Made by a program: the position numbers and the translations under genes
IMG/VR virus record: IMGVR_UViG_3300042695_002264
Span: 106,519 to 170,518 of that record
DNA length: 64,000 bases
Origin: a virus
Reading direction: 5' to 3' (one strand)
Notes under the pieces: generated by a model
What the model was told of the DNA's origin: nothing
Databases searched by the model: none
What the model saw: the letters and a program-made list of their open reading frames with translations, nothing else
Shown: piece after piece, positions 4,118-61,527 of the stretch
Numbering within the stretch: position 1 is the first letter of the stretch
Layout: every line of letters begins with the position of its first letter

Positions 4118-4119
4118 AA

Positions 4120-4908
4120 TTAATCCCAATACTTAAAAACATGCGCTTTCCATCCTTCAGGGACTATATTATCACATTTTTTTGTAGATAAAATTTCTTT
4201 CCATTGATCTTCTGAAAATGGATAGTATGTATGTTTCATCCTGACATCTCCCGATACTATGCTAACAACCTTTGTATCAGTTCTATGCCTCCATACTGTT
4301 CCATCTTTTTCTTGGCGTACGCTCCATTTGCCACAATCTGCAAAAATAGGATAATTTTTACCATTATGGCTTATATAAATAGATTTATATTTTAAATTAT
4401 TTTCTTTTATATAATTTTGGATACACTCCTCGGTCCATTTGATTTCACTCCATGGGCCTGGACCACCAATACTCTTTGGTATTTTATTGTAGAATGATGG
4501 ACTTATAAACTGAGCCCTTTCTGAATAGTTGCCATGTCCTTGGTTACCAGCAAGATCTATATAAGCGTACCTATCGTTTTCAATAAGTTTTACCATTGAT
4601 TCAATAAAATTATCATCAATTACTGCTAATTGAAGCTGGTCTACTTGTATATAGAATGCATAATCGGCAAAGGATTGAGCAAATAGCTGTATTGTTCCTG
4701 CGCCGCAACCATTATTTCGGCTATTAACTATAAGATCATCTATTAACCCATCCTGCTTGAACTTCTCTGAATATCTCTCGGAAGATCCATTATCTAAATA
4801 TGTAATTTTATAATCAAACTTAGAATTTGATCTTATACTATTTAATAAGTTTTTGGCTTCATCTGGCCTATTATAGTCAAGTATAAGATACTCAATAACA
4901 TATTTCAT
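4120..4908 (-). CDS. Glycosyltransferase, GT2-like
   Basis: LDYNRP, YLDNGS, NNGCGAG. Confidence 0.7.
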   Translation of the reverse strand: MKYVIEYLILDYNRPDEAKNLLNSIRSNSKFDYKITYLDNGSSERYSEKFKQDGLIDDLIVNSRNNGCGAGTIQLFAQSFADYAFYIQVDQLQLAVIDDNFIESMVKLIENDRYAYIDLAGNQGHGNYSERAQFISPSFYNKIPKSIGGPGPWSEIKWTEECIQNYIKENNLKYKSIYISHNGKNYPIFADCGKWSVRQEKDGTVWRHRTDTKVVSIVSGDVRMKHTYYPFSEDQWKEILSTKKCDNIVPEGWKAHVFKYWD

Positions 4909-37671: not shown

Positions 37672-39111
37672 TTAAATATATCTTAAAATAACTAAATTTC
37701 TAATAGTTTCATTTTCTGCTTGTTGCGCTGCTTCTTGCTCTGGGGTTATTGTAACTAATCTACCACTATTAATATTCAATGTTTTTGTATTATTGCTGTA
37801 ATATAATCTACCCTCTTGGTACGGAATATTCGTGTCAGAGTTCGGAATAAAATCAATTGTATTAAAATTTCCACTCGTATATTTGACTGTTATGGTTTGT
37901 GATGGGTAACCATCTTTGCTAATCTCTATTCCGCTTACGCCATCTATATTCACTGCACCATATGAATTATTTAAACTTGTAATTCCAGAATTTCCTGCCT
38001 CAATAAGTCCTGTCAAAAATCCAGAAAGATTATCTAAATATCCTGATATAATTTGAATACCAGTATTCAATGTAGAAGTTGCTTGTCCAGAAAAAATATC
38101 AAAAATATCTTTTGTTACTACATTTTTAACATAATTTGCTGAAGCAATTGCGCGACCCCCAAGAACAATATGTAAATTTGTAAGATTATTTAGCCCCCTA
38201 TAGATATCTATTCCAACAATTTGTCTTGGTAAAATATATTTATCTTGACCTATTAAATTAAAAGACGCAAATGTGCCAGTCGGCATTGTAAAATTTGTTA
38301 TTGTTGTTCGCGTATTAGATTTTGGATCACGATAATAAAATCTACCACTAAGCGGCTGCTGAATTGTTAATGGATCGCCATTTCCAATCGTACTAGATCC
38401 AGTTGATGCCGAATAAACACCCCATCTTGTAGCTATAAATTCATTTGGCAAATAATATTCCAGAACGGTTTCTCCAGTTATAGATCCATATTCCAAGAAA
38501 AAAGAAATGGCAGAATCTCCACTACTCATTATTACGCCATCGCTTACATTGGCTTCATTTATATCGTTATATCTCCCTCTTAAAGAAACTATTAAGTCTT
38601 CTGCCCCAGACAATCCAGAATATATATTCCATCCAATAATCGTATCACCGCTAATTGTAGTTTCTGGAATTACTCCAAAATTAAAAAACTCACCAGAATT
38701 TATCCAAAACGAAGTAACTGTTGTTTTGCTATTTGGATCGGTCAAACTTCTAGTATAAAAATCTCCAGTAAGTGGGCCAAATAATAGTTGACTTGGATTT
38801 GACGGATTTACATGCGTTGGTCCAAGACCACTTCTTCCTAAAGAAACGCTCCATCCAGTAACAATATATGATGATGCTGTATATTCCTCATATAATGACA
38901 TTCCAGTATATGGAAAAGATGCAAAATAACTTGGGGGCTGTAGGCCTATTTCGTATGGCAATACAATAAATGGATTTGCTCCAGGCACAGCCAATGGCCT
39001 TCCATCAATAAGTAAAGTTTCTTTCCAATCATCAACTGTCACATGGCTGCCGCTCATAAAAATAGAGGCAACATTCAGATGTGAACTAGATGTTTTAATT
39101 CTATTTTTCAT
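37672..39111 (-). CDS. Fibre-like virion protein with two tandem beta domains
   Basis: Two ~120-aa repeats (EEY..TGW..GDFY..IG.NIYSGL); ITSLNN..GAV fibre repeat; EGRLYY. Confidence 0.55.
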   Translation of the reverse strand: MKNRIKTSSSHLNVASIFMSGSHVTVDDWKETLLIDGRPLAVPGANPFIVLPYEIGLQPPSYFASFPYTGMSLYEEYTASSYIVTGWSVSLGRSGLGPTHVNPSNPSQLLFGPLTGDFYTRSLTDPNSKTTVTSFWINSGEFFNFGVIPETTISGDTIIGWNIYSGLSGAEDLIVSLRGRYNDINEANVSDGVIMSSGDSAISFFLEYGSITGETVLEYYLPNEFIATRWGVYSASTGSSTIGNGDPLTIQQPLSGRFYYRDPKSNTRTTITNFTMPTGTFASFNLIGQDKYILPRQIVGIDIYRGLNNLTNLHIVLGGRAIASANYVKNVVTKDIFDIFSGQATSTLNTGIQIISGYLDNLSGFLTGLIEAGNSGITSLNNSYGAVNIDGVSGIEISKDGYPSQTITVKYTSGNFNTIDFIPNSDTNIPYQEGRLYYSNNTKTLNINSGRLVTITPEQEAAQQAENETIRNLVILRYI

Positions 39112-40547
39112 TATTCAATATATGGAGAAACGCTAAAATTTGTGAAATTTAAGTTTGCAGTGAAAATAACATCATGAACGCCATCCAGACCATCCCCAGG
39201 ATCATTTCCAGAATATCCACTTGCCCATACATACAATCTTTCATCGTTTCCTCCGCTCAAAAAAATGTTATATTTATTTGTGCCACCAAAAAGATCTGAT
39301 TCGTCTTTTATATCAATTTGTAAATTTGTTGCACGTTGAGCCATGAAATATTTTTTACCATATATTCCAAAATTTTTTGCATCAAAACTTGCATCAAAAT
39401 CTGTAATATCATACCTAACGGCCATATAATTTATCTCGCCAAATAAAATTGTTCCCGTTTGAAGAAAAATTCCAGAATATGAAGTTTTTGGAACTTTCAA
39501 GGTTTTCATAATTTCCTTTCCAGATAAGAAAGCTTTCATATGCATATTTGTAGTAAATGTATTATCTACAGACCCACCAAAAGCAACAGCATATGGGTGT
39601 TTAAATGTTTGATTGTTAAAAATTCCATTTATTAATGAAGACCCTGTTACATTAACAAAATTACTTCCAGTATTATTTACAAAAGTCGAAAAACTATTTT
39701 GTAAATATCTAGAATCAACTGAATTAAAAGTATTTATGCCAGTATTTCCCTGCAACCTATTGCGATCTCCATCAATTAAACATGATGTATTTTGATTAAT
39801 TATATTCTCGTTGCCAATATAATTAATATTTAAATTATTACCTGCAAAAAACTGATTAACGCCCCAGCCTCTACCCGTATATCCAACAAAAATACTGTTT
39901 AATCCAGTAACGGTGTTTAGATTAATATCTGAAGTTCCAATCAAAGAAACTGGATTTCCTTGAAGTCCATTTATTGAATTTACCCCAGAAAATGCTGCTT
40001 GACCTGCATCAATAAAAATTGATTGGCCTGTAACAGTAACTTGAGCGCCATTTCTGCCAATTAAAGATATGTTACCAGTGGCATTGTTTAATTTTCCTAT
40101 ACCAGAATTACGAATTGTTAATAAAGTTTTATTAGAATTATATACTGTTTCTATACTATTTGCCCCAGTAATAGAAATCCCACTAATGGCCAATGTGGAT
40201 AAATTAATTGGCCAAACATCAACATTTCCATATCCAGAAATATTCTGAAAGCTAAATCCTCCTCCAGCACCGCCAGAAGATCCAATATAAATTGTGTTTC
40301 CGCTTACTCTCGTATAAATTCCGCTTACTCCAGTGACAGAAACATTTCCAGCCAATCCGCCCAAAGATTGAACAAAATTTCCATTTTCGCCATTTAGTGC
40401 GAAAAATAACGTATTTCCAATAGGAACAGATTTTAATCCAGAAACTCCACTTAAATTGCTATAATTTGGATATAAAGGATCTCCGTATGTTTTAACTAAG
40501 CCAGAAATATCTGGGTGAAGTTGTGAAGCGCGAATTAATGTTCTCAT
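39111..40547 (-). CDS. Fibre protein with VxSLxG..GxV repeats
   Basis: [34 protein letters not shown] repeats. Confidence 0.6.
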
Positions 40548-48637: not shown

Positions 48638-49834
48638 ATGCCAACAAATTTTCAACAGTCAAAAGATGTTCTTCACCCATTAGCGTTTGAATTTATAAAT
48701 AAATGTAAAAATTTAAATGCCCAGCTCGATGCATCCGAAATAAATGCAATTGATTTTTTAACAAGGCAACTTTTACAAAACAATCTTTGGGATAAATTCA
48801 AAGCAATATACCCATTTGTTGGAAAAAGCTCACAAACACATTCTTTAAATTTAAAAAATTTACAGAGGCATACTATAGTGTGGTATAATCAAAATGATTT
48901 AAAACACGATAAATTTGGAGTTACAAATAGCAATATTGGATATGGCAACACTATGGTTGCCCCAAGCTGGTTTAGTGATAATGATATACATATATCAGTA
49001 TATAACTCGACGTATTGGCAAAACACAAATGATACCGCTCCAATAATAGGATCTTCACCCGCAAGTGACCCGACTAAGGGATGGATGCATACAATTTACT
49101 TAAGGTCATTAGCTCCTATTTTAAATTCACAAATAAATACATTATGGGACAGGGCACCAATCTTCACCTATTCCTGTGGTTATTCATCCAATTCATCAGT
49201 GAGATTTGCAGGAACAGATGGTTCAGAGTTTCAACATGTAGAAACGTATGGTTTTATTGTTGGTGTAAATGGCATAAAATGCTATGTGAATGGAAATTTA
49301 TATGGAAGACAGGGGGTAATTAACGATGTCTCAACGCAACCAATAAATCAAGTATCAACCAGAACTGTAAATGGAAATACCGCTCAAATACCAAACATAT
49401 CTCAATTTCCATTCTTGTTATTCACAAATGGCAGATTCACGTCTACTAATGGACAAGCAAGGGCAAATATAAGATTTGCAAGTATTGGATATGAATTAAC
49501 AGATCAAGAGAATAAAGTTTTATATAATATTATTCAAGAGTTCCAAAAAATACTTGGAAGAAGTGTTGAGCCAATAATATTAAAAACATTCCAGCAAAAT
49601 CTTATAGACCAATATTTAACATTAAATATTAAAATAAATAAAATTTTTATACAACCAACAAAGCCATATCGTGAATATTTAAATATTGAAATGCCACCAA
49701 AACAACAAAAGAAAATAAATGCGCTTTCAGCAAGCGTAGATATTTCAAGAATCGAAGTTTTCGGCCCAGTGCGGGTATTTTGCGCAGATACTTCAAAAAC
49801 AACCGTATCAATACAGTCTTTAGTAGAATTATAA
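48638..49834 (+). CDS. Virion protein, 'LWxKFxAxYPFVG' family
   Basis: Shares NLW.KF.A.YPFVG, H(I/L)S.Y and ANI.FASIGY.L with 52987-53853 and the ends of 56379-60164. Confidence 0.55.
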   Translation: MPTNFQQSKDVLHPLAFEFINKCKNLNAQLDASEINAIDFLTRQLLQNNLWDKFKAIYPFVGKSSQTHSLNLKNLQRHTIVWYNQNDLKHDKFGVTNSNIGYGNTMVAPSWFSDNDIHISVYNSTYWQNTNDTAPIIGSSPASDPTKGWMHTIYLRSLAPILNSQINTLWDRAPIFTYSCGYSSNSSVRFAGTDGSEFQHVETYGFIVGVNGIKCYVNGNLYGRQGVINDVSTQPINQVSTRTVNGNTAQIPNISQFPFLLFTNGRFTSTNGQARANIRFASIGYELTDQENKVLYNIIQEFQKILGRSVEPIILKTFQQNLIDQYLTLNIKINKIFIQPTKPYREYLNIEMPPKQQKKINALSASVDISRIEVFGPVRVFCADTSKTTVSIQSLVEL

Positions 49835-50953
49835 ATGAATATTTTAGTCAAACAATTTCAAGAATTTTATAAAGAACCACAAACCAAAGTGTGTGGAAAA
49901 TGGAATATTTCTATTTTAGATAGAAACGGTAACGAATCTTTTCCATTTGGAAAAGAAATGAAAAAAAATCTGATATTAAATCAAGGCTTAGATCTGTTAA
50001 TTGCTGGCAAATATTATGGCGAATATTCAATTTTTAACTGGAATACAATACCATCATTTTTAATTGGTGGCGCTGTATATGGAAACGGATTGCTGCCAGC
50101 AAATGAATCTGACATATCATTAACAAATGAAATTGCAGAAACTTCTATAATTAATGATGATTCTTGTAGCATTACAGATAATTATACGAACGGAACGCGC
50201 ACGTACAGAAAGGTATATGACTTTCCAACAATAGAGATTGGAGATCCGAATACTCAAATTAGTGAAGTTGGCCTATTTTCAAACTGGCGAAATAATAAAA
50301 CTCTTTTTTCAAAATTTCTTTTACCAAGAGTTTTGCGGCTAGATTATGGGCAATGGATTAGATTATTTTATGATTTTACAATTGGTTCGGATATGATTGT
50401 AACCCCAAATAATATTAATTTATCGTCAGGCAGTTTTAACGCGTCTGGTTTAATGAAATTATGCGGAAGATTTGATGATATATTTGGCAGTTTTGATGCG
50501 AATGGGAACCCTGTAATTGTTTTCGGAGATTCTCCTCGTGCTTCTTTTATACCATTTTATGAAAATTTTTGCGCCGAGATATCCACATGTCAAACAGAAT
50601 GTTTTGGAACCGCATATTTGTTAGCGCCAGGGATAAGCAACTTTAACGATACAAACACAAAAATCATATCCGAATGGATTGGCAATAGATTAGAAAAAAA
50701 TTTAAATACAATAAATCCATCAGAATATATAGATGGAAATTTTTATAGAGATATTGAATATATATTTGATTATAATAATCCAATTTATAATGAATTAACT
50801 GAAGGAATATTATTTACAGTCCTTCGTGGTTCTGATACTAGCCCAAGACAAAACACAATTGATGGGTGGTTGTGGAAATTTAATAATGGTCAAATTAAAC
50901 AATCATCAAAAAAAATTGTAATAGGATTAAGACAATCTATAAATAGAATATAA
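49835..50953 (+). CDS. Virion/fibre protein, paralog family B
   Basis: GKWNI..NLIL, KVYDF, SKF, RLFY, G.MKL.G shared with 50954 and 60232. Confidence 0.55.
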   Translation: MNILVKQFQEFYKEPQTKVCGKWNISILDRNGNESFPFGKEMKKNLILNQGLDLLIAGKYYGEYSIFNWNTIPSFLIGGAVYGNGLLPANESDISLTNEIAETSIINDDSCSITDNYTNGTRTYRKVYDFPTIEIGDPNTQISEVGLFSNWRNNKTLFSKFLLPRVLRLDYGQWIRLFYDFTIGSDMIVTPNNINLSSGSFNASGLMKLCGRFDDIFGSFDANGNPVIVFGDSPRASFIPFYENFCAEISTCQTECFGTAYLLAPGISNFNDTNTKIISEWIGNRLEKNLNTINPSEYIDGNFYRDIEYIFDYNNPIYNELTEGILFTVLRGSDTSPRQNTIDGWLWKFNNGQIKQSSKKIVIGLRQSINRI

Positions 50954-52990
50954 ATGAATACCGCGAATATAAATACATATTTTGGTGCAAAGTGGAATAT
51001 CGAAGTATGTAAGTCTGGTGAAAATGGTATAGAATCTTATTTTCCATTAGGTGAAAAACTTAAAAATAATATGATTCTAGATCATTGGCTAGAATCACTT
51101 ATTTATTTATATTCTCCTTCTGGTGGGGCAGTAAAGGCATATTGCGATAATGGGCTATCATTGGCAGGAATAACAAGAGGAGCAATGCATATAGGTGCAG
51201 GTTCCATCCCGCCAAACTATCAACAAACTGGATTACAAATTCCATTAAAATCAACTTCATATATAAGGCCATTTTTTAATCAATGCACGGGCATTTATTA
51301 TCCAGAATCAGGCATGGCCGTTATTAGTAAAAATTACGACTTTGGTATTGAAAATAATATAGTAACTTATTCAGAAGCTGGATTTCGGCCTGGCATTGCT
51401 GATGCGTTACCTACCGGAAAAAGAAATTGGCTATGGTCAAGATTTGTATTTACTAAAGAGACTGGAGTTTCTGGATATATATATGCAAACAGCGGAAGTA
51501 TGGGAATTACTGGAATGGATCTTAGCGGTGTATTTGTAGATAATAATCAGTATGATTTAAGAAAACCAACGGATCCACTTTATAATGGACTTAGTGGATT
51601 GCCATCATTTGAATTGGGATGGAGATATAACTGGCCAGAAAATTCTGGTATGTTTTTAATTGATCAAAGCGGCAGCACTACAGGTTTTGTTTATAACCCT
51701 AAAAATATTACAGAGCTAGTAACTGGATTTATAAGTGGATATTTAAGTGGCGGAAATTTTTATCCATTTACATTATCATCTTATCCAGCAGAATCAAGTG
51801 GACTTAGTGGAATTTATTTGCAAGATGGGATAACAAATACTTTATATTTTTCATCTGGTGGATTTAATGAATTTTCTGGATTCACTGGAAAATATTTTAA
51901 TACGAGTAGTGGATTTCAATACACTGGATTCGATCAAGGCTATTCTTTATACGGTAGTGGTTTTTATCCAACTAGCGGGATATTAACTGGTAGCATGACA
52001 GGAATTATTGGCTCAAGAAACGTACTAAAACTTGACGGGTATATTACAGGAACTATTGGATTTAAAAATATTACAAACCCAATAACTTTAAGCACAGGAG
52101 AATTTTTAAAATTAAGATATGATGTTTATATGCAGATACCTGCAATAGTTAACCCAATTTTAGTTACCGGCGACGATATAACTCATGGAGAATTTAACGG
52201 AAGCGGTCAATTAAAACTAATAGGCAAACAAACAAGCATGTTTGGCACAATCGATGGGGATGGAAAAGTTACCCCAGGTATTGGAATTTGGTGGCCACTT
52301 CATAGAACAAACTATTCAAAATATAGCCGAAGCCAATGGGATAATCTGGCGGAACCAAATGCTCACTTATCTGCATTAATGGTAGCAAGTGGAGTTAGCG
52401 GTGGTGGGGTAAATTTTAATGACTCTTTTCCAGAAACAAACACAACCTCTCCAATTGTTAGCGCGCAGCTTGATGATGAAATACGTTTTTGTGATACTCT
52501 TGAGCCAAAAATTGGAGACTGTGGAACCGGACTAAATAAACGATCTTATTTTGAAAAACGATACTATTCAAGCAAAGGATTAATGCAAAGCCCTTCATGG
52601 CCACTATACTCACATTCTGGTGTGCGCGTGTACAATTATATAGCGCATAACCGTCCATCTGCAATATGGCCAAAAAGCATAGATATTCAAATGATTTTTC
52701 CTGGACCTTATCCAAATCAAGATACTGGAATTAATGGTTTTTCTATATGTGGCGCATCAGAAGGAACGGTTTGCGGTGGAAGAACCATTGCGGATGGTCA
52801 AGGAAACGCATATAGACCCGAGCAATACATTAAGCCTACTTTATACGAAAATACAGGGGCGTATCTTGATTGCGGATTAACACTTCCATACTCTGCGTGG
52901 TATTATAAATTCAACAATCCACAAATGAAATATGAAGATCAAATAATTAATTTATATTTAACATTTTCTTTGGATAGAATAACTGTATGA
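50954..52990 (+). CDS. Virion/fibre protein, family B with SG-rich insert
   Basis: Family B motifs interrupted at about 51460-52070 by an SG/TG-rich module. Confidence 0.55.
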   Translation: MNTANINTYFGAKWNIEVCKSGENGIESYFPLGEKLKNNMILDHWLESLIYLYSPSGGAVKAYCDNGLSLAGITRGAMHIGAGSIPPNYQQTGLQIPLKSTSYIRPFFNQCTGIYYPESGMAVISKNYDFGIENNIVTYSEAGFRPGIADALPTGKRNWLWSRFVFTKETGVSGYIYANSGSMGITGMDLSGVFVDNNQYDLRKPTDPLYNGLSGLPSFELGWRYNWPENSGMFLIDQSGSTTGFVYNPKNITELVTGFISGYLSGGNFYPFTLSSYPAESSGLSGIYLQDGITNTLYFSSGGFNEFSGFTGKYFNTSSGFQYTGFDQGYSLYGSGFYPTSGILTGSMTGIIGSRNVLKLDGYITGTIGFKNITNPITLSTGEFLKLRYDVYMQIPAIVNPILVTGDDITHGEFNGSGQLKLIGKQTSMFGTIDGDGKVTPGIGIWWPLHRTNYSKYSRSQWDNLAEPNAHLSALMVASGVSGGGVNFNDSFPETNTTSPIVSAQLDDEIRFCDTLEPKIGDCGTGLNKRSYFEKRYYSSKGLMQSPSWPLYSHSGVRVYNYIAHNRPSAIWPKSIDIQMIFPGPYPNQDTGINGFSICGASEGTVCGGRTIADGQGNAYRPEQYIKPTLYENTGAYLDCGLTLPYSAWYYKFNNPQMKYEDQIINLYLTFSLDRITV

Positions 52991-53853
52991 TTATAGCCAA
53001 TCAAAGATCTTCTGAAAAGCATAAATTCATACTTGTAGCCAATCAGTATTTTTCGCTAATTAATAAGCCACGAAACCTTCCAACTTACCAAATAGGGGCA
53101 ATAACAGAATTGATAAACGCACTGTACGAATCAAATTTATGGGAAAAATTTGTTGCAGTATATCCATTCGTTGGCGATGGTAGTTCTGAAAAAAACAGTT
53201 TAAATTTAATAGATCCATATAAATATAAAATTAGCTGGAGCGGATCTATTATATTTAATAAATTTGGTATTAATGGAAATGGTGGGATAGGATTGACAGG
53301 AATTAAATTGGTTGATTTAAGCGATTTTACAAACGTTCATTTAAGCGCGTATACGCGCACAGCAATAACCAATACTATTGGGCGAGGAAGACTTATTGGG
53401 GCAAATACACAAAATAGACTTGTTGCCATAAGAGACGTTGGCGCGCTAGAAATAAATTATAATAAAGAAAATGGTATAGTTGGATTTGTTTATAATGTGC
53501 TAAACAATAGCGGTGGATTTGGTATGATTTATGAAAATATGTTAAATAATTCAATTTCTGGAAATGGCTTTTTAATAGCAAATAACAACAATAAAGAAAA
53601 AAAATACGCAAAATGTTATCTCAATGGTTCTATTTTTGGAGAGCAATTTCCATTACTTCCAACAGAAATACACACAGCAAACCAGAGAACGTTAACAATA
53701 TTTGGAGATGGGTATGAAAACCTAAACACATCACCACTACGAGCCAATATTGCATTTGCCAGTATTGGATACGGTCTTTCAGATAATGATATATTTAATT
53801 TTAATAAAATAGTACAATCTTTTCAGGTGGCAATGGATAGATCAGTAATGTAA
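52987..53853 (+). CDS. Virion protein, 'LWxKFxAxYPFVG' family
   Basis: Paralog of 48638-49834. Confidence 0.55.
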   Translation: MIIANQRSSEKHKFILVANQYFSLINKPRNLPTYQIGAITELINALYESNLWEKFVAVYPFVGDGSSEKNSLNLIDPYKYKISWSGSIIFNKFGINGNGGIGLTGIKLVDLSDFTNVHLSAYTRTAITNTIGRGRLIGANTQNRLVAIRDVGALEINYNKENGIVGFVYNVLNNSGGFGMIYENMLNNSISGNGFLIANNNNKEKKYAKCYLNGSIFGEQFPLLPTEIHTANQRTLTIFGDGYENLNTSPLRANIAFASIGYGLSDNDIFNFNKIVQSFQVAMDRSVM

Positions 53854-53861
53854 TAAAAATA

Positions 53862-56372
53862 ATGGCAAGCGTTTTTTCAATTGAGAGTATCAACCTAAAT
53901 GGCGATATATTAACCGCAAATAATGGCAGTTTATATATTAACAATAATTTAGTAAAAAATACATCTGGAATACAACTTTCAGATAGATTTTTTATAAAAG
54001 GCTATGCTCCGATATCATTTTACTCCAAATGGCCACAGCAAGGAGATTATTTAAATGAAACGTATTTGAATGATTTTTTTATGGCTACTGGAATGCTTGT
54101 AACATGCAGCCAGCCAAGTACCGGAAATCAAATATTTTGGGGTGGATTTTATCAACGCCCAGCATCATCATCAATAGATACAACTGTATTTGCAAACTTT
54201 GAATTACAACCAAAGCAAATCATACAGCATAACCCTATAAATTATAAAATTGAACGTGACAGAATTATAGGGCTAAATATATATAATGCACCCGAAGATA
54301 TGCGCTCTATCTCAATTCATTTGTTGGGATATTTTCCAGCAGCAGCTCATTTTGATAGGATGCCTAAGCAAATTAATTTTTATGCAAAAAATGCTCCTAT
54401 CTATGGAGACAGTATTCATGAAGAATATTCTCAATGGGATTCGCTATATACTGGTGTTGGAATATACTGCTCAACGACTGGAATTGACAAATTAACATAC
54501 ACCCAACTAATAACTGGATATATTAGTGGCGTAGCTCAAAATGAACCATTATATGTATTATCTAAAAGTTTAGCAAAACAAAAATGCGACCCATGCGATC
54601 CAGATATGGATTTTTCATCATGGAGTGGTTATTATTTAAATGAAAATAAAATAAATTTTCCAACAGGAAATAATTTTTCTGGACTATCTGGGCAAAATGG
54701 ATTTTCCAACACTTCTGGCTTTTCATATACAGGATTTCAAATATTAAACAATCAAACAATATTAAATGGAATATATAGCGGCTACGGAGATTCACTATTT
54801 GGATCTGGGGAAATGTTGCAAAGTATAGGATGGAGAAGTGGGGCTTTTATAGAGCCAATATCTGGATTTGTAAGCGGCTATACTGATCAATACGGCACAT
54901 TCAAACGCCTTTCCATTATTACCACTGGAGTTTCCGGCTCTGGGATAGATACTGGAATATTTAGGCTAGACTTAACTGGGTTTGTAATTGGATCAAGTGG
55001 TTACTTTATTAATGGTAAAAAATATTTTTTTCCATCAGATAGGCCAATTTCTTATAATATAGTTGGTTTCATGAGTGGCTATATGGATTCTATCGGTCGA
55101 TTTTCAGGTTTTCAAAATCTAAATATCATATCAGGATCAAGTGGATATTTTATAAATACACCATCCGATTATGTGCAAGTATTTTTTCCTACTGGAAACT
55201 CTTTCAATAACTTTATTGGTATGTATGGAATTTATACTGGTAGCGGATACTCATCATATCATACTGGATTTTCATTTCCTCTTGGAAGTGGATTTTCTGG
55301 AATTGACGGGCTGACATCGAATACTTATGGCATTATGACTGGCATAATTGGAGCAGCAAACATTTTCATTCCATTTTCTGGATTTTCTGGACGACCAAAT
55401 GTTGATATTGGTTTGGGCTTTGATTATAGCGGATTGCGAGGAGATTTATACAAGACTTCATTTTCTGGACAAAGCTATGATGGTTTTGGATATACTGGTC
55501 AATTAATTTCTATATTTGGAAAAAGAAATGTTTCTGGGAGGCAAGACATAACTGGCTTTGTTAGAACTGATGCAAAAATAAATTTTATACCCACAGCATC
55601 TTCACCAACAGTTTCTGGCATAAGTGGATACTATTTGGACAATAATATATATAGATTTCCAATAGGCCCATTCTATCCGCCATATTATGAATTTCCAAAA
55701 TTTGATGATAACCCTGCATTTACAAAGTACGGAAATAGTTATAGTGGATTCTATCCATTTGAAAGCGGGTTCAGCGGTTTTGGAGTTACTGGAATTAGAA
55801 AAGAATATATAATTGGGTTTATAAGTGGATACAAGGATGTATTTGAACAATTTTTCCAATTTACAGGACCAAGTGGCAGTAGCGGATTTATAACTGGAAG
55901 TCAAAAATTTTTCTTTCCATCCGGTTCGCAATTTTCTGGATTTTCTGGATTTTCTGGATTTGATAATAATTTAGGATTTTTATATTCAGGCTTTAGCTCA
56001 AATCCTTATAGAAATGAAAATTTTATTGGAGATATTTATTCCACATCTGGATCTGGAATAATCACTGGAATTGTTGGTTGGAGAAATGTTGAGTTTGTTA
56101 CAAAAGAATATGGTACTGGAATAATGACAGGCTTTATTGGTAGTAGAAATGCCCCATACTCTGGCATATTGACTGGAAATTTTTACCATAAAGATAAATT
56201 TAGCAATAAAATAATTGGACCAAAATTTGGTTTAAATACTGGACAATTATATAATGAATCATTTGGTATTGGATTTAAAGTTCCTTATGGAAATAGGGTA
56301 GGAATTGATTTGTACAATCCACTATCTGGAATATCAGACATAAATATAACTATGTTTGGTTACTATGAATAA
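53862..56372 (+). CDS. Fibre-like protein with large nested SG-rich insert
   Basis: Two domains similar to those of 37672-39111; the second is split by a ~550-aa repeat insert; TGTAAT 7 nt before ATG. Confidence 0.6.
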   Translation: MASVFSIESINLNGDILTANNGSLYINNNLVKNTSGIQLSDRFFIKGYAPISFYSKWPQQGDYLNETYLNDFFMATGMLVTCSQPSTGNQIFWGGFYQRPASSSIDTTVFANFELQPKQIIQHNPINYKIERDRIIGLNIYNAPEDMRSISIHLLGYFPAAAHFDRMPKQINFYAKNAPIYGDSIHEEYSQWDSLYTGVGIYCSTTGIDKLTYTQLITGYISGVAQNEPLYVLSKSLAKQKCDPCDPDMDFSSWSGYYLNENKINFPTGNNFSGLSGQNGFSNTSGFSYTGFQILNNQTILNGIYSGYGDSLFGSGEMLQSIGWRSGAFIEPISGFVSGYTDQYGTFKRLSIITTGVSGSGIDTGIFRLDLTGFVIGSSGYFINGKKYFFPSDRPISYNIVGFMSGYMDSIGRFSGFQNLNIISGSSGYFINTPSDYVQVFFPTGNSFNNFIGMYGIYTGSGYSSYHTGFSFPLGSGFSGIDGLTSNTYGIMTGIIGAANIFIPFSGFSGRPNVDIGLGFDYSGLRGDLYKTSFSGQSYDGFGYTGQLISIFGKRNVSGRQDITGFVRTDAKINFIPTASSPTVSGISGYYLDNNIYRFPIGPFYPPYYEFPKFDDNPAFTKYGNSYSGFYPFESGFSGFGVTGIRKEYIIGFISGYKDVFEQFFQFTGPSGSSGFITGSQKFFFPSGSQFSGFSGFSGFDNNLGFLYSGFSSNPYRNENFIGDIYSTSGSGIITGIVGWRNVEFVTKEYGTGIMTGFIGSRNAPYSGILTGNFYHKDKFSNKIIGPKFGLNTGQLYNESFGIGFKVPYGNRVGIDLYNPLSGISDINITMFGYYE
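55932..55958 (+). repeat. (TTTTCTGGA)x3 tandem repeat encoding FSGFSGFSG
   Basis: Read directly; degenerate copy near 58965. Confidence 0.8.
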
Positions 56373-56378
56373 TATGTT

Positions 56379-59300
56379 ATGCTATTTGAAGACATAAAGC
56401 ATCCACTTGTTAGCGATTTTTTAACTAGAATCAGTGGGTCTGGCTATACATATTTAAATACTGAGTCTTCTAGTAGAATAAATGATTTTGTTAAATATTT
56501 GGGATCCATCACTGCAGATAATGGTGACGATTTTGCTTTTTATCCCCTAAGGCAAGCGCAAAATATAGGAATAGGAAATCAGATATTTGGCATTGGATAT
56601 ATGGCATCTGGCACAAATATTGTTTTTCCCCAAAATATAAACTGGACAGAGTCTGGCATTTTACTAAATAGCATTAAAAATTGTGGTATTTTAAATTTTT
56701 CTGGCAAATTAAAAGATTCAAAATTTCAATTTAGAAAAAATGAAACTTCTATCTTTTATTTTTTAAAACATAATAGGCCTAAATATGAAACATCGTTATA
56801 TAGGGATGGACAAGTATGTCCATATTTTTGGTTCGATGATTCCTTAGATAATTTTGGCGTAATTGCTCCAGAATTTTCTACCAGCGATTTTAGAACAACC
56901 GGGACAACATACCTTTATGACGAAATATATGGTGGAGATAAAAAGGGCTACCAGATTGATTTTTCATCAGATGATCCAACAAAATATAATGTGTTTAATT
57001 CTAATACTGGAAGGGCGATAGGCACTGGTATAGCTCCATATGTACCACCAGCAGTTTCATTTTATGAAATGGACAATAATGAAAATAAATTTGTATGTAT
57101 TAACGCAGTAATACGAGAAAGCCAATATTCTATTAGATCATTTTTTGGCCGCGATTATAGAAGTTTAACTGGAAATTTTCCAAATCCATATCAATCTATT
57201 GAAGTTACTGATCCAAAAACTCAAGAAGTTTATATTGATAATTTTTTTCCAAGAAGAATGGTAATTGGCGCTGGCGTAAGAAACAAAAGCGCAGCTGGCT
57301 ATGATTTGGATGGCACAGATCATATATGTGCTGGAATTTTAATATTAAGAGGCGACTATAGCAATAAATCAAAAGATATTGCCGAAAATATGGCTGAGGC
57401 TATTGGTATAAAAATTCGCCCTCCTAAAAATTTGGATACAACATTTGCTTTTGGAAATATATTAAATGATAGATTTGCCTGTAGCGGATATATAGCATCA
57501 ATCAATTATTATGATTATACAAGTCCAGTTTTATACAAAACATATAGCGACTATTATGATATTGTAAACTTTACAGCTTCAATATACAGCGGATCATACA
57601 TTGACTATGGCCAATGGACATATAATGTGGTCAATAGCGTTACTGGAGAATTAAGATCGCCACAAATCGGTGATACAATTAATAATGATAGCAATATAAC
57701 TGGAATAGTAAATTTAATTGGCTTCCAAAATGGCATAACAGCTCCGTTTGGTGCATTTTATAATCAAGGAGTAATAGGTTTTGTTAGTGGATATGCTACA
57801 AAAATAAATAACGAATTTATCTTTAACAGATTCACAGAGCAGACAGAAAGTGGAGCGAGCGGTTTTTATAGATCAAATATCAGCGGTATAGCAACGGGGC
57901 AAATTTTCTTTCCACCAATAAGAAAAATATTTCAAGAATTAATTACTGGATATGTTAGTGGCATTAAAGACTCAGATAGTTTATTTACTCCCTTTGATTC
58001 TAGCTCCAACCTATATTCTAGTGGATATTATTATGGTGATCAAGTATATGCATACCCACAAATTGGCATTATACCGCAAAAAATAACTGGCTATATTAGC
58101 GGATTTTTATCTGAAAACGGAATATTCTCAGAATTTGATAAAAATTATTTGGATAGTTCTAGTGGATATTTTTATAGCGAAAATTCATACGAATTCTTGC
58201 CTAAAAAAACTATTACTAATTCTCCCGTAACAGGATTTTTAGTTGGAATGAAAAGCGGAGATTATTTTTCCGGATACTATCAAAATACACCAACTGACGG
58301 CTTGTACAGTGGATTTTTTATAGATAATGATTTTTCTAACCCAGCAGAAATAGAACCAGTTATTGAAATATATTTTCCAACAGGCTCTGGGTTGTTTTCT
58401 GGATTTAGCGGCATGTCCGGAATAGATGAGCGTCTTGGCTTTAATTTTACAGGATTTTTTCAGAACATATTTGATATAAATGGTGATCCGATTTTGGATG
58501 AGAGCGGAAATGCAATCATACTGTCATTTGATGGAAGTAGTGGATTTATTGATATTGGTGCTGGGCCATTTCCAAACACAAGAACAGCTTCATGCACCGG
58601 AATTATAGGGTCAAAGAATGTTTTAAATTTTTCTGGAAGTTTTGATGGCTTTAATAATATAGAAGTACCAGATATAAATTATGGATCTTCATATAGTGGA
58701 TTTTTCATTGAATCTAGTGGGTTTGTCGGTACAGGAAATTTTGGAAGTGGAATGTTTACAGGATTTATTGGATCTATAAATATACTTGAATACATCAACT
58801 TAACAGGATTTCAAGATAACTTAGATTTTCTTGCCGGAGGATTATTTACAGGATTTTCGTTTCCGCTTGGGTCTGGTTTTAGTGGATTATATGATAATCT
58901 TTCTGGAACTGGAATACAAACAGGATTTATTGGATCAAGATATTATCTTATGGAATCTGGATCTTTTTCTGGATTTTCTGGCTTTTCAGGATTTTCTGAT
59001 GCATTTTTAAATGAAATAAATATTGATTTTTCTTTTCAAAATGGAAGTGGATTTTCTGGACTATATTTTCAAGATTCTGGCTACGGTGTTATCTCTGGAT
59101 TAATTACTACCGGAAAATCTCCATTGCTATTTGGGGATCCATTATATTTCGTTCCTTCTATATTGGCAATATCATATGGTGGCAATTTTACGCAATTCAT
59201 AACTGGTGACTTTATTTTTACTGGCGTTATTCCAGATATTACTGGTATTAGATATTTATCTGGTGCTGTATTTACCTATGCAATTAATACAGGATCATTA

Positions 59301-60164
59301 ATAACTGGAGACATTTTTGTAACAGGAACGCACCCAGAAATAACCTCATTAAACTACTTTGCTACTACAGGCGAAGATATTATATTGTCTGGCTTTGATG
59401 GCAATGCACTTTCATATATATTTAGATTGGAAGCATATGAGGGGCAAAAGCTTGAAAGTGGAGTAAGGGTAGAAATTAATAAATTTATATCAGGATTAAA
59501 AACTGATGGTATATGGGATAGTATTACAGATTGCTGTTTGATGGCTGGACCAAGAACATTTTCTGGAGCTTTTGTTCCATTAAAAGGAAATAGCGGTATT
59601 GGTTATAACTTTATTAGTAGTGATTATAATCGCGCTAGCGGTTTAATTGGTGATGCATCATCAAAATATGTTGATTCTAATCGAAGCTTAAACATAGAAC
59701 CTTCAGGAAACCAACACTTGGCAGTTTATATAACTAAAACTGGATCGCCATCATTTAATCAGTACTATATCGGCGCTGGTGTTCAAAACGTAACTGGATC
59801 AAGCGCTATTTATGCTAGCGGTGCAGGTGCGCTTTTCCAAAAATCTAGAGCAAGTGGAATAGCTAATTATCAAAATTTTGGACCATCCACGGGCTTCATG
59901 GCGGTCTCAAGATTTAGCACGGGTATTTGGGCTGCAAGAAATACATATATATCAGAAACAGCCTTTGTTTATGTAGAAAGTGGGGCGCAACCAGCGAATG
60001 TGTATGTTTTTGCCAATAATAATACTGGCATTGGGGCTGGTATGCCAGAGGGTTATAGCGATGCAAGAATTGCCATTTATTCTATCGGCACGAATATTAA
60101 TATATTATCAAATTATGAAAATAGAGTTATTTCATACCTTAGTGGTATTAAGAAATATGTTTAA
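56379..60164 (+). CDS. Large fibre-like protein with terminal YPF-family domains and nested SG repeats
   Basis: Degenerate N-terminal and C-terminal (LKTDGIWD..HLAVY) family domains; central repeats. Confidence 0.6.
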   Translation: MLFEDIKHPLVSDFLTRISGSGYTYLNTESSSRINDFVKYLGSITADNGDDFAFYPLRQAQNIGIGNQIFGIGYMASGTNIVFPQNINWTESGILLNSIKNCGILNFSGKLKDSKFQFRKNETSIFYFLKHNRPKYETSLYRDGQVCPYFWFDDSLDNFGVIAPEFSTSDFRTTGTTYLYDEIYGGDKKGYQIDFSSDDPTKYNVFNSNTGRAIGTGIAPYVPPAVSFYEMDNNENKFVCINAVIRESQYSIRSFFGRDYRSLTGNFPNPYQSIEVTDPKTQEVYIDNFFPRRMVIGAGVRNKSAAGYDLDGTDHICAGILILRGDYSNKSKDIAENMAEAIGIKIRPPKNLDTTFAFGNILNDRFACSGYIASINYYDYTSPVLYKTYSDYYDIVNFTASIYSGSYIDYGQWTYNVVNSVTGELRSPQIGDTINNDSNITGIVNLIGFQNGITAPFGAFYNQGVIGFVSGYATKINNEFIFNRFTEQTESGASGFYRSNISGIATGQIFFPPIRKIFQELITGYVSGIKDSDSLFTPFDSSSNLYSSGYYYGDQVYAYPQIGIIPQKITGYISGFLSENGIFSEFDKNYLDSSSGYFYSENSYEFLPKKTITNSPVTGFLVGMKSGDYFSGYYQNTPTDGLYSGFFIDNDFSNPAEIEPVIEIYFPTGSGLFSGFSGMSGIDERLGFNFTGFFQNIFDINGDPILDESGNAIILSFDGSSGFIDIGAGPFPNTRTASCTGIIGSKNVLNFSGSFDGFNNIEVPDINYGSSYSGFFIESSGFVGTGNFGSGMFTGFIGSINILEYINLTGFQDNLDFLAGGLFTGFSFPLGSGFSGLYDNLSGTGIQTGFIGSRYYLMESGSFSGFSGFSGFSDAFLNEINIDFSFQNGSGFSGLYFQDSGYGVISGLITTGKSPLLFGDPLYFVPSILAISYGGNFTQFITGDFIFTGVIPDITGIRYLSGAVFTYAINTGSLITGDIFVTGTHPEITSLNYFATTGEDIILSGFDGNALSYIFRLEAYEGQKLESGVRVEINKFISGLKTDGIWDSITDCCLMAGPRTFSGAFVPLKGNSGIGYNFISSDYNRASGLIGDASSKYVDSNRSLNIEPSGNQHLAVYITKTGSPSFNQYYIGAGVQNVTGSSAIYASGAGALFQKSRASGIANYQNFGPSTGFMAVSRFSTGIWAARNTYISETAFVYVESGAQPANVYVFANNNTGIGAGMPEGYSDARIAIYSIGTNINILSNYENRVISYLSGIKKYV

Positions 60165-60231
60165 TTATTAATTAATAAAAAATTAAATTTTACAATATTA
60201 GAAATGTATATATAATAAGGGAAATAAAGTT

Positions 60232-61527
60232 ATGCCTCTAAATATTTTAAAAAAACGCCATATCGAAACAGAAATTGAGAATAACACTCATGTAGATGGT
60301 GAATGGAAAGTTGAGATTGTATGCCAAAATGGTGAAATTAAAAAGCCTCTTGGAGATAAATGGCGAAAAAACTTAATTCAAGATAGAGGATTGAATATAT
60401 TCAATGGCACGTATGGAAGTTTTAGCAGCAATGCTAATGCGAATACTAATTCAATATCAGCCTTTATAAGTTCGGCATATTTTGGAAATAGCAGTGCTGA
60501 TCCGTTTGCTACAGATAAAACATTTTTAACTAGCACAAACAATAATATATACTATACAAGAAGAAACACTCTAAACGTACCAGAAAATACAAATCCAAAC
60601 AGCGATGATTTAGTAACGGGGTCACGAACTTTTACAAAAGTATGGGATTTTGCATCTCTGGCTGCTGGCGAAACGCGCGATGTTAGAGAAATAGTGATTG
60701 CGGCCAATACTTATGATGGTTTTAATAATTCTACCGATCAAAGCAAGGGGACCCAAGGAACATTTACAACAAACATACCAGTAATTTCGCGCTTTATTCT
60801 TCCATCAACAGTAACTCTAACTGAATTTCAATTTTTAAGACTTTACTATTCAATAAAAGTAACAGTTCCAGCAATAGTTACGCCAGTTCCGATTACATTG
60901 TCAAATAACGGTTTTGATGGAACTGGTCAATTAAAATTAATAGGCCTATGGTCTAGTATATTTTCTGGAAATGGCCACTTATGGCAGCGCAGAAACTTTG
61001 GCACTTTGATTAACGTAGTTTCAACTCCACATACGCCATGGTCGCTAATCGGAAGAGATGGAATGGCAGCTTTACCGCTTAAAGGCAATTCAAATCCAAA
61101 TTTAAATTTTAATTTTCCAGCAGTTGGTGCTGATTTTTCAATATCGTATGCAAATGCGTTATATGATGCAACACAAACTGTACTCCATACTTCACCAGGC
61201 TGCTCTGTTAGTCCATCGTCAGCAGTTCAACAAACGGTTGTAAACCAGTCTGTGTCAAGAGAGGCTACTATGCTGTTTCAAGCAAATAACCCAAGCGTGA
61301 ATAGCCCACTTGCTGGATTTGTTTTCCTTCCTCGCGGTGAAGGCAATAATTTTACGGGAGGATCGACTCCAACTTTTACCGAAGCTCTTACTACAGATAC
61401 TGCTCTTGGAAGATACATGTGGTACTGGAGGTTCACAGACCCAACATTTACAAATCCAAGATCTGTAATTAAAGATGTCAACTATGGCCTTGTGGTTAAT
61501 TTGCGGCAAACAATTGCAAGAGGCTAA
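60232..61527 (+). CDS. Virion/fibre protein, paralog family B
   Basis: GEWKVE..NLIQ, KVWDF, SRF.LP, LRLYY, GQLKLIG. Confidence 0.55.
   Translation: MPLNILKKRHIETEIENNTHVDGEWKVEIVCQNGEIKKPLGDKWRKNLIQDRGLNIFNGTYGSFSSNANANTNSISAFISSAYFGNSSADPFATDKTFLTSTNNNIYYTRRNTLNVPENTNPNSDDLVTGSRTFTKVWDFASLAAGETRDVREIVIAANTYDGFNNSTDQSKGTQGTFTTNIPVISRFILPSTVTLTEFQFLRLYYSIKVTVPAIVTPVPITLSNNGFDGTGQLKLIGLWSSIFSGNGHLWQRRNFGTLINVVSTPHTPWSLIGRDGMAALPLKGNSNPNLNFNFPAVGADFSISYANALYDATQTVLHTSPGCSVSPSSAVQQTVVNQSVSREATMLFQANNPSVNSPLAGFVFLPRGEGNNFTGGSTPTFTEALTTDTALGRYMWYWRFTDPTFTNPRSVIKDVNYGLVVNLRQTIARG

What the first reader, a model, noticed from the sequence alone, without database searches (positions are those of the whole stretch)
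51460..59114. Russian-doll repeats: an SG-rich module inserted into itself and into three different proteins
The module has an opening half A (ITG[FY][IV]SG...SG[YF][YF]...FP) and a closing half B (FSG..GF...[YF][TS]GF...TG.IG.RN). In 56379 the order is A A A A B B B B (A at about 57768, 57939, 58083, 58227; B ending at about 58619, 58781, 58943, 59114). In 53862 it is AB, A(AB)B, A..(AB)..B across 54507-56150. In 50954 there is at least one AB. The halves balance like parentheses, which tandem duplication would not produce; this implies recursive insertion of the domain into its own loop. In 50954 and 53862 the insert splits a domain that is contiguous in the paralogs (49835/60232 and 37672). 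Inference: the chain runs out and back as an extensible antiparallel stalk whose length is set by nesting depth, possibly serving as a glycan scaffold.
Basis: partly seen in the sequence, partly recalled or inferred. Interest (0 to 1): 0.8.

Follow-up and report, generated by a model that had tools for sequence, protein, structure and literature searches.

The report
Self-nesting insert domain in phage fibre genes
Three neighbouring tail-fibre-like genes of an uncultured 170-kb phage carry eleven copies of a new ~100-residue domain that sits inside loops of other proteins and of its own copies like Russian dolls, and related phages differ by whole copies, so it looks like a natural kit for building fibre projections of different size.

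Summary

The module has three parts: A, a middle part (m) and a short closing strand (b). Whole modules sit at two sites, A|m and m|b.
- Across 62 proteins, A and m counts correlate at r=0.95.
- Gaps inside a module are either 19 residues or fewer, or about 100-residue multiples.
- Two proteins 87-89% identical differ by one clean 100-residue module exactly at A|m.

Nested self-insertion is therefore well supported at sequence level. Two covariation tests and a conservation-symmetry test did not confirm A1-B4 pairing. The glycan-scaffold idea is untested.

The family has no Pfam, PDB or GenBank-phage match, and only 22 clusters appear among 1.84 billion representatives.

The principle is published for cyanobacterial RNA polymerase Si3. 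This scan's earlier notes report self-nested barrels in other phage fibres on other DNA. I rate it a new variant of a known kind.

The parts
50954..52990 (+). Gene 50954 (678 aa). The host domain is shared with 49835 and 60232. It carries 2 modules, nested 2 deep.
51461..51559 (+). 50954 outer module, part A (aa 170-202, divergent).
51569..51718 (+). 50954 outer module, divergent middle part (aa 206-255). This is the 'beta0' type conserved in 13 family members.
51719..52021 (+). 50954 inner complete module (aa 256-356), inserted before the outer closing strand.
52034..52069 (+). 50954 outer closing strand (aa 361-372). The host domain resumes directly after it.
53862..56372 (+). Gene 53862 (836 aa), 5 modules: Amb | A(Amb)mb | Am(Amb)b.
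54507..54836 (+). 53862 module 1, contiguous (aa 216-325).
54855..55034 (+). 53862 module 2, part A (aa 332-391). It has an internal partial duplication that orthologues show as an extra partial A.
55056..55361 (+). 53862 module 3 (aa 399-500), complete, inserted at the A|m site of module 2.
55368..55529 (+). 53862 module 2, part B (aa 503-556).
55545..55805 (+). 53862 module 4, part A (aa 562-600) and middle part (aa 609-648) without its closing strand.
55806..56087 (+). 53862 module 5 (aa 649-742), complete, inserted at the m|b site of module 4.
56091..56150 (+). 53862 module 4 closing strand (aa 744-763).
56379..60164 (+). Gene 56379 (1261 aa), 4 modules nested 4 deep at the A|m site. The C-terminal aa 1006-1257 match phrog_17104.
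57768..58379 (+). 56379 parts A1-A4 (aa 464-513, 522-560, 568-608, 616-667), with 7-8 aa linkers.
58383..59114 (+). 56379 parts B1-B4 (aa 669-747, 751-801, 804-855, 859-912), with 2-3 aa linkers. The last closing motif is degenerate.
49835..50953 (+). Paralogue of 50954 without any module. Its N-terminus matches phrog_4176, tail fibre protein.
60232..61527 (+). Second paralogue of 50954 without any module.
37672..39111 (-). Paralogue of the 53862 host part without any module. It holds two copies of the ~65-aa subdomain, 16 aa apart.

Best explanation
The repeat unit is a previously undescribed insertional protein domain of about 90-110 residues, probably all-beta. It reads in three parts: A (about 40 aa, opening with an I-T-G-F-I-S-G type strand and ending F-F-P), a middle part m (about 40 aa rich in F-S-G-F-S-G and G-F motifs), and a short closing strand b (G-x-G-x-x-T-G-x-I-G-x-R-N type).

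Its first and last strands are inferred to lie side by side. That would let the whole domain be plugged into a surface loop of another protein. It tolerates further whole copies of itself at two of its own loops: between A and m, and between m and b.

Repeated use of these two sockets gives bracket-like, sometimes branched, chains:
- gene 56379: A(A(A(AB)B)B)B
- gene 53862: AB, A(AB)B, Am(AB)b
- gene 50954: Am(AB)b

The chain passes outward through the A parts and returns through the B parts. N- and C-terminal host parts therefore stay together, and the modules form a projection from tail-fibre-like virion proteins.

Related phages gain, lose or exchange whole modules at these sockets. I infer that this tunes the reach, branching or number of binding surfaces of the fibres.

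Shown: the token grammar, the two sites, whole-module indels, host-loop insertion, and restriction to a small phage clade. Inferred: the fold, the physical pairing of a split A with its B, the stalk shape, and the function.
For: (1) HMM order. AAAABBBB holds in the window protein and 16 of 16 homologues.

(2) Three-token parse.
- 19 of 62 proteins have zero errors, and 41 of 62 have one or none, at fixed thresholds.
- After iteration this is 18-20 and 44. With a post hoc model for the divergent middle part it is 21 and 46.
- The error-free words include 27-token words nested 4 deep (P0044, P0031).

(3) Token counts are A 296, m 279, b 264. r(A,m)=0.95 over 62 proteins with 1-10 modules, and the A-m difference is 0 in 41 of 62.

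(4) Distances A->m and m->b fall at 19 aa or less, or at about 100, 140, 200-260, 310... aa, with almost nothing between.

(5) Direct whole-module events.
- P0046 and P0034 have flanks 87% and 89% identical and differ by one 100-aa module. It lies exactly after the outer A's F-F-P and before the outer middle part.
- P0034 and P0044 (65-68% identical) differ by a 196-aa two-module nest exactly between the middle part and the closing strand.
- P0025 and P0024 (64-66% identical) differ by three tandem modules at the same site.

(6) In the 50954 family the leading A run is 1, 2, 3 or 4 long. It is followed by 0, 1, 2 or 3 full B plus the split outer B, read by eye with the divergent middle part.

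(7) The module occupies different host loops.
- After S-R-F-V-F in 50954, a point contiguous in 49835 and 60232.
- At a second site of the same host domain in P0056 and P0062.
- In the unrelated hosts 53862 and 56379.

(8) Split modules score like contiguous ones: A 37.6 versus 35.7 bits, closing strand 15.1 versus 16.2.

(9) Linkers are short and uniform: A->A median 8, b->m 5, m->A 7.

(10) Precedent: HABAS/SBHM domains are recursively inserted into each other in cyanobacterial RNA polymerase Si3 (passages read in PMC11515920, PMC10895346 and PMC13114784).
Against: The pairing of a split A with its B is therefore inferred from sequence grammar only.

A coupling model trained on 111 contiguous A-B pairs (Neff 68) did not even rank the known adjacent pair A4-B1 first in the 56379 family.

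A mirror-tree test ranked the nested pairing 3rd of 24, which is not significant.

Per-unit conservation in the 56379 family is not palindromic. Values are A1 57, A2 55, A3 70, A4 71 and B1 57, B2 57, B3 63, B4 69. This fits a parallel pairing A1-B1..A4-B4 better than A1-B4..A4-B1 (four points only).

Doublet-preserving shuffles of the token words are often as grammatical as the real words (P 0.02-0.6).

At fixed thresholds 41-44 of 62 proteins have at least one parse error. Most are missed short closing strands or the divergent middle part. Some are real exceptions, such as the partial extra A in 6 orthologues of 53862.

Between distant relatives (P0052 versus 53862) token-level orthology is ambiguous.

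The fibre function rests on one PHROG match of a paralogue and on gene neighbourhood.
Confidence: 0.7

Rival explanations
1. Two independent repeat types. A and B are separate short repeats of a linear, probably trimeric, fibre shaft. Each expanded by its own tandem duplication, and there is no physical A-B pairing and no out-and-back path.
For: AAAABBBB can arise from two tandem expansions. Conservation per unit fits position-matched A(i)-B(i) better than a palindrome. The pairing tests were inconclusive. Doublet-preserving shuffles are often as grammatical as the real words.
Against: This reading does not explain the near 1:1:1 stoichiometry over 1-10 modules. It does not explain closing strands piling up after split middle parts in matching numbers, or the 100-aa quantised gaps. 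It does not explain single complete modules sitting in different host loops. In the 87-89% identical pair, the extra A and extra B are only about a third identical to their neighbours by eye, so they are not recent tandem copies.
Confidence: 0.1
2. Same nested chain path, but not autonomous globular domains. The ascending A segments and descending B segments of three chains intertwine into one long beta needle, as in the receptor-binding tip of the T4 long tail fibre gp37 (recalled, not read here). Each inserted unit would then lengthen the needle by one layer.
For: The out-and-back order, the short uniform linkers and the tail-fibre context fit this. The largest insertions sit at the turn, in A4 and B1 of 56379.
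Against: Branching: several modules in tandem inside one socket, and two sockets per module. Single modules also sit in side loops of a globular host domain. Both are hard to fit into one three-fold needle. There are no HxH metal-site motifs: 0 in 1200 module residues, and only 1 His.
Confidence: 0.15
3. One reading: the Ser/Thr-Gly-rich modules mainly serve as a scaffold for O-linked glycans on the virion. This can hold together with any of the structural readings.
For: The module regions have 10-12 [ST]G per 100 aa. The same window encodes a family-2 glycosyltransferase (4120-4908, minus strand), a second GT2-like gene (3-578) and a sugar C-methyltransferase (571-1785).
Against: There is no test of glycosylation. 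The conserved S and G sit in fixed positions next to aromatic residues, as expected for turns and strands of a fold rather than for free acceptor sites. The sugar genes lie 46 kb away and could serve DNA or host-surface modification.
Confidence: 0.1
4. Compositional artefact: a low-complexity G/S/F-rich region in which motif searches see patterns by chance.
For: The composition is biased. Four of the 22 representative hits (P0061, P0063, P0064, P0066) carry no A or B token and look spurious.
Against: Domain E-values reach 1e-17. The ordered motifs are conserved in homologues down to 36% identity. Indels are clean and module-sized.
Confidence: 0.02

Closest known systems
Si3 insertion of cyanobacterial RNA polymerase beta' (RpoC2): sandwich-barrel hybrid motif (SBHM) / HABAS domains recursively inserted into one another (PMC11515920, PMC10895346, PMC13114784; passages read)
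   Same: One small domain family acts as both host and insert. Several copies are made of distant chain segments. The nesting is multi-level (six levels reported) with branch points, and builds an elongated arm (150 A for eight copies). The whole array itself sits inside a loop of a host domain.
   Different: No sequence relationship was detected: there are no Pfam or PDB hits. The context is a virion fibre rather than an enzyme. Here two defined sockets recur, and close relatives differ by whole modules, so the nesting is evolutionarily active. The fold of this module is unknown.
Self-nested small beta-barrel domains in T4-like cyanophage and other phage fibre and baseplate proteins, as noted earlier by this scan on other DNA (AI notes e1-5829900, e1-5921908, e1-5326105, e1-6041063 and others)
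   Same: The domain size is about 100 residues, the grammar is bracket-like with branches, 'missing' last strands follow in reverse order at the end, and close relatives differ by whole copies, all in a phage fibre context.
   Different: Those are unchecked notes on other genomes. A sequence look-up with one of my modules found none of them. The AB profile reaches only 22 clusters in 1.84 billion representatives, so this is a separate, narrow sequence family. The proteins here are small (678-1261 aa), and the module is spread over three adjacent genes.
Needle domain of the T4 long-tail-fibre tip gp37
   Same: The chain runs out to a tip and back, so ascending and descending repeats appear in mirrored order in a receptor-binding fibre.
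   Different: The T4 needle is an intertwined trimer held by HxH iron sites. There are no HxH motifs here, and the branching and side-loop insertions do not fit a single needle.
Split domains of RTX adhesins that project ligand-binding domains from the fibre axis (PMC12077191, PMC10865825; search listing and abstracts only)
   Same: A fibre domain is interrupted in sequence so that inserted domains stick out sideways. This is a functional analogue for presenting binding surfaces.
   Different: In the RTX adhesins the inserts are different domains, not copies of the host domain. They are bacterial adhesins, not virion proteins, and recursion is not reported in what I saw.
Insertion domains in phage receptor-binding proteins and tailspikes (for example LKA1gp49 and KP34gp57; search listing only)
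   Same: A foreign domain is placed in a loop of a phage host-recognition protein.
   Different: These are single-level, heterotypic insertions.

Membership tests
Recursive homotypic domain insertion (architecture class exemplified by RNA polymerase Si3) | Host and insert belong to the same domain family. | tested here: met
   The same A, m and b HMMs hit inner and outer copies with similar scores.
Recursive homotypic domain insertion (architecture class exemplified by RNA polymerase Si3) | An inserted copy interrupts the sequence of the host copy, whose parts flank it, over more than one level. | tested here: met
   The token grammar reaches depth 5. Whole-module indels fall at the A|m and m|b sites.
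Recursive homotypic domain insertion (architecture class exemplified by RNA polymerase Si3) | The separated parts of a split copy reassemble into one fold in 3-D. | not testable with these tools
The sequence-only pairing tests were inconclusive.
SBHM / HABAS fold (CATH 2.40.50.100) | Sequence or structural similarity to the hybrid-motif barrel. | tested here: not met
   There are no Pfam hits even at E<=5 and no PDB sequence relatives. Structural similarity could not be tested.
Phage tail fibre / receptor-binding protein | Similarity to known fibre proteins and location among virion genes. | tested here: inconclusive
   Only paralogue 49835 matches phrog_4176 'tail fiber protein' (E 1.4e-9). 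The cluster lies beside PhoH, terminase and portal genes, and the tape measure is 22 kb away. The three module-bearing genes keep their order in a related virus contig. There is no direct evidence of virion location.
T4 gp37-type needle | HxH metal-binding repeats on the ascending and descending strands (feature recalled from memory). | tested here: not met
   There are 0 HxH motifs and 1 His in the 1200 module residues of the three genes.
Any curated protein family (Pfam, NCBIfam, PHROGs) for the module itself | Significant profile match over the module. | tested here: not met
   Searches found none. The phrog_17104 match lies in the C-terminal non-repeat part of 56379.

The most novel reading that the evidence does not exclude
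The module is a self-compatible 'plug and two sockets' building block. This phage lineage uses it as a generative grammar for virion appendages. Recombination adds, removes or swaps whole modules at two defined loops of any existing copy, so one ~100-residue domain yields stalks, forks and clusters of different depth on three different fibre proteins. Host range or adsorption would then be tuned by changing the tree, not the residues. On this reading it is an independent invention of recursive self-insertion, alongside RNA polymerase Si3 and the barrel trees this scan noted in other phage fibres, and such nesting would be a general design rule of phage host-contact organelles.
Probability: 0.35. 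Interest if true: 0.75.

Novelty: new variant of a known kind. Interest (0 to 1): 0.55.

Why it matters
Multi-level insertion of a domain into copies of itself is rare in the literature I could search. The main example is the Si3 arm of cyanobacterial RNA polymerase.

Here a different, unannotated domain family does the same thing in small, tractable phage fibre genes. It has two recurring insertion points, and natural relatives differ by exactly one, two or three modules, one pair at 87-89% identity. That offers three things:
- a compact natural series for asking how a fold tolerates being split and refolding around an insert;
- a possible template for engineering fibres or scaffolds of set length and branching;
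- a sequence rule (A, m, b tokens that must parse) that can flag such proteins where domain databases see nothing.

It also warns annotators that such regions are not simple tandem repeats.

Tried and rejected
No fold search could follow. The ESM Atlas holds the 53862 protein but no model, and gave no feature hits.

PDB sequence searches with the AB profile, both family alignments and 49835 gave only chance hits with E>0.09. Pfam at E<=5, NCBIfam at E<=1 and PHROGs gave nothing for the module.

The GenBank phage collection had no DNA or protein match to the region. The terminase has only 20-24% identical relatives, mostly Bacillus phages, so the lineage is uncultured.

Three tests of A-B pairing failed or were inconclusive:
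- The coupling (MI-APC, log-odds) model trained on 111 contiguous A-B pairs was uninformative. All scores were negative, and the true adjacent pair was not the best.
- The mirror-tree partial correlations ranked the nested pairing 3rd of 24 and the parallel pairing 6th.
- Per-unit conservation was not palindromic.

Token-by-token identity between P0052 and 53862 could not assign orthology of inner versus outer copies.

The IMG/VR scan returned 9 loci, none with the P0046/P0047 form. The metagenome scan with P0047 found nothing.

No module-free or shallower relative of 56379 turned up in the 693-2207 aa range. All 18 homologues of its N-terminal part carry the array (P0087 mapped). Shorter and longer proteins were not searched.

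Literature searches for this build in phage fibres found none. Supplements were not consulted.

Rejected readings: a compositional artefact, and recent tandem duplication, because DNA repeats are short and only 60-93% identical.

Full report
**Setting**

The window is the last 64 kb of a 170,518-bp IMG/VR virus record that CheckV rates complete. GC is about 0.32. It encodes a 1680-aa tape measure, a large terminase, a portal-like protein and PhoH on the minus strand.

A plus-strand run of seven genes covers 48638-61527. This run contains paralogue sets: 48638~52987, and 49835~50954~60232. The N-terminal part of 53862 resembles 37672. Only 49835 has a named match, phrog_4176 'tail fiber protein' (E 1.4e-9). 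The C-terminus of 56379 matches phrog_17104, of unknown function.

No region-wide DNA or protein match exists in the GenBank phage collection. The terminase has only 20-24% identical relatives.

**Checking the observation**

I then aligned nine A and nine B seed segments chosen by coordinates, built HMMs and iterated them on the window proteins plus 32 homologues of 56379.
- In 56379, A lies at aa 464-513, 522-560, 568-608 and 616-667, and B at aa 669-747, 751-801, 804-855 and 859-912.
- The order AAAABBBB holds in the window protein and in all 16 homologues P0004-P0019, down to 36-39% identity.
- 53862 reads A B A A B B A (weak B) A B b over aa 216-763.
- None of the module-free paralogues (49835, 60232, 37672, 39111, 48638, 52987) has a hit.

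**A three-part module with two sockets**

Reading the hits residue by residue showed a recurring pattern. A B that stops at HMM position 48-51 is followed at once by a new A. Later, after a complete B, an extra copy of only the last 16 positions of B appears.

I therefore split B into a middle part m (positions 1-38) and a closing strand b, and made separate HMMs. A module is A X m Y b, where X and Y are empty or hold whole modules.

At fixed score thresholds the window genes read as follows:
- 53862 = Amb A(Amb)mb Am(Amb)b
- 50954 = Am(Amb)b
- 56379 = AAAA mb mb mb m, with a degenerate last closing motif

Long words of relatives parse without any error. One example is the 27-token word of P0044 and P0031 at depth 4.

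Overall parse quality:
- 19 of 62 proteins parse with zero errors, and 41 of 62 with at most one.
- After iterating the HMMs this is 18-20 and 44.
- After adding a post hoc model for a divergent outer middle part, found in 13 members of the 50954 family plus one weak hit elsewhere, it is 21 and 46.
- By eye, with that divergent part and trailing closing strands counted, P0020, P0023, P0025, P0030 and P0035 also parse fully.
- A real exception is an extra partial A in six orthologues of 53862, an internal stutter of the outer A of module 2.

**Quantitative support**
- Token totals are A 296, m 279, b 264. Counts of A and m per protein correlate at r=0.95 over proteins with 1-10 modules and are equal in 41 of 62.
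- Inside a module, the distance from A to m and from m to b is either at most 19 aa, or clusters near 100, 140, 200-260, 310 aa and so on. Only three values lie between 20 and 94.
- Linkers are short and uniform: A->A median 8 (IQR 7-9), b->m 5, m->A 7, b->A 6.
- Split modules keep the same HMM scores as contiguous ones.
- Free shuffles of the tokens are almost never as grammatical (P<=0.003 for words of 12 or more tokens, with one exception). Doublet-preserving shuffles often are (P 0.02-0.6). That null already contains most of the grammar and cannot be rejected for most words.

**Direct events between relatives**

P0046 (937 aa) and P0034 (1040 aa) are 87% and 89% identical on either side of a single 100-aa difference. 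The difference is one complete module placed right after the F-F-P end of the outer A and before the outer middle part. The extra module is not a near copy of its neighbours, and its best match outside orthologues scores less than half of self. This is therefore a whole-module loss or exchange, not a fresh tandem duplication.

P0034 and P0044 (65-68% identical) differ by 196 aa reading A m (A m b) b, placed exactly between a middle part and its closing strand. P0025 and P0024 (64-66% identical) differ by three tandem modules at the same kind of site.

Module numbers by family:
- The 53862 family ranges from three plain tandem modules (P0052-P0055, 575-597 aa) to nine modules at depth 4 (P0044, P0031).
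- The 50954 family ranges from two modules (the window) to about ten (P0024). A leading run of 1, 2, 3 or 4 A is matched by 0, 1, 2 or 3 full B plus the split outer B.
- The 56379 family is fixed at four, with extra modules downstream in P0026, P0027, P0029 and P0087.

The three genes keep their order in a related 107-kb virus contig.

**Insertion into host proteins**

50954 aligns with 49835 and 60232 on both sides of aa 166-372. The paralogues run straight from the S-(K/R)-F-(L/I)-L-P stretch into the next conserved strand.

Two 43-44% identical orthologues (P0056, P0062) have only one compact module there. They carry a second, canonical module in another loop of the same host domain, near 50954 aa 474, which is absent from 50954, P0058, 49835 and 60232.

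For 53862, aa 47-207 align with 37672 aa 56-238 (z 13). The C-terminal aa 770-833 align with 37672 aa 254-319 (z 5.6) and also with aa 112-181 (z 9.3), because this ~65-aa subdomain is duplicated. The array thus replaces a 16-aa connection between two subdomain copies.

A single domain that can sit in several unrelated loops must have its two ends close together. This is the basis for inferring that the opening strand of A and the closing strand b are neighbours.

**What could not be shown**

Three sequence-only substitutes failed to settle it:
- a coupling model (uninformative);
- mirror-tree correlations (the nested pairing ranked 3rd of 24, and the adjacent A4-B1 pair was the strongest at 0.49);
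- per-unit conservation, which is not palindromic and, taken at face value, fits A(i)-B(i) better.

I count the last as evidence against, although it rests on four points. The fold is unknown. No Pfam, NCBIfam, PHROG or PDB relative of the module exists.

**Distribution**

A five-row AB profile from the window found 22 clusters at E<=0.001 among 1.84 billion 50%-identity representatives. Four of these carry no tokens and look spurious. All named members are 'hypothetical protein' from metagenomes.

**Comparison with what is known**

A 2026 survey of domain insertions reports that most are single-level, and gives a six-level recursive example in the Si3 region of Prochlorococcus RpoC2 (PMC13114784, passages).

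[quoted passage not shown] PMC10895346 describes eight SBHM copies, four of them built from distant chain segments, forming a 150-A arm (passages).

The principle is therefore published, for another fold and another kind of protein. My searches for it in phage fibres found nothing.

This scan's own earlier notes describe self-nested ~100-residue barrel domains in many phage fibre and baseplate proteins on other DNA, including closing strands that follow in reverse order. Those notes are unchecked. A sequence look-up with one of my modules did not connect to them.

I reached Si3 from the literature before reading those notes. The RTX-adhesin lead came from them, and I checked it only at the level of a search listing and abstracts.

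**Function**

I infer a projection on tail-fibre-like proteins whose size and branching are set by the module tree. It would serve reach or multivalent binding.

The glycan-scaffold idea remains open. The module is rich in [ST]G, and the window encodes a GT2 glycosyltransferase, a GT2-like protein and a sugar C-methyltransferase at 3-4908 on the minus strand. Nothing links these genes to the modules.

**Verdict**

It is a new variant of a known kind, of moderate interest.

Noticed in passing
window 3-4908 (-): A sugar-modification gene cluster sits at the start of the window. It holds an NDP-hexose-type C-methyltransferase (571-1785; PF08484, PF08421), a family-2 glycosyltransferase (4120-4908; PF00535), a weaker GT2 match at 2571-3329, and a GT2-like fragment at 3-578.
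   Followed up: partly
window 54139-54332 and 56169-56366 (53862 aa 93-157 and 770-835); 37672 aa 112-181 and 254-319: A ~65-aa subdomain (G-x-F-Y-x-R ... I-I-G-x-N-I-Y ... L-S-G ... G-x-Y) occurs twice in both 53862 and 37672. In 53862 the whole module array lies between the two copies.
   Followed up: partly
P0056 aa 404-499, P0062 aa 383-482 (relatives of gene 50954): A canonical module is inserted at a second loop of the host domain, near 50954 aa 474. It is absent from the window gene.
   Followed up: partly
window 51700-51712 and 52063-52075: An exact 13-nt direct repeat, coding K-N-I-T both times, flanks the stretch made of the inner module plus the outer closing strand of gene 50954. 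The spacing is 363 nt. It could be a footprint of the insertion event or chance; I estimate a handful of such 13-mers by chance in this AT-rich region (family D6).
   Followed up: no
window 55932-55961 and 58965-58994: Perfect or near-perfect 9-nt tandem triplets (TTTTCTGGA x3) encode F-S-G-F-S-G-F-S-G at the start of some B parts. They are possible slippage sites (family D1).
   Followed up: no
window 48638-49834 and 52987-53853: Genes 48638 and 52987 are paralogues, 30% identical over 304 aa, and are interleaved with the module-bearing genes. They have no family match.
   Followed up: no
window 59190-59350 (56379 aa ~938-990): Just after the module array, 56379 has a different short duplicated motif (I-T-G-D-hydrophobic-x-x-T-G ... 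P-[DE]-I-T). P0026 has a 98-aa G/Y/S-rich stretch at the same place.
   Followed up: no
window 39111-40547 (-): Gene 39111 has a weak, sub-threshold Pfam match to a beta-helical trimerisation domain (PF21930, E 0.033). It also shows weak similarity to 56379 aa 805-1099.
   Followed up: no
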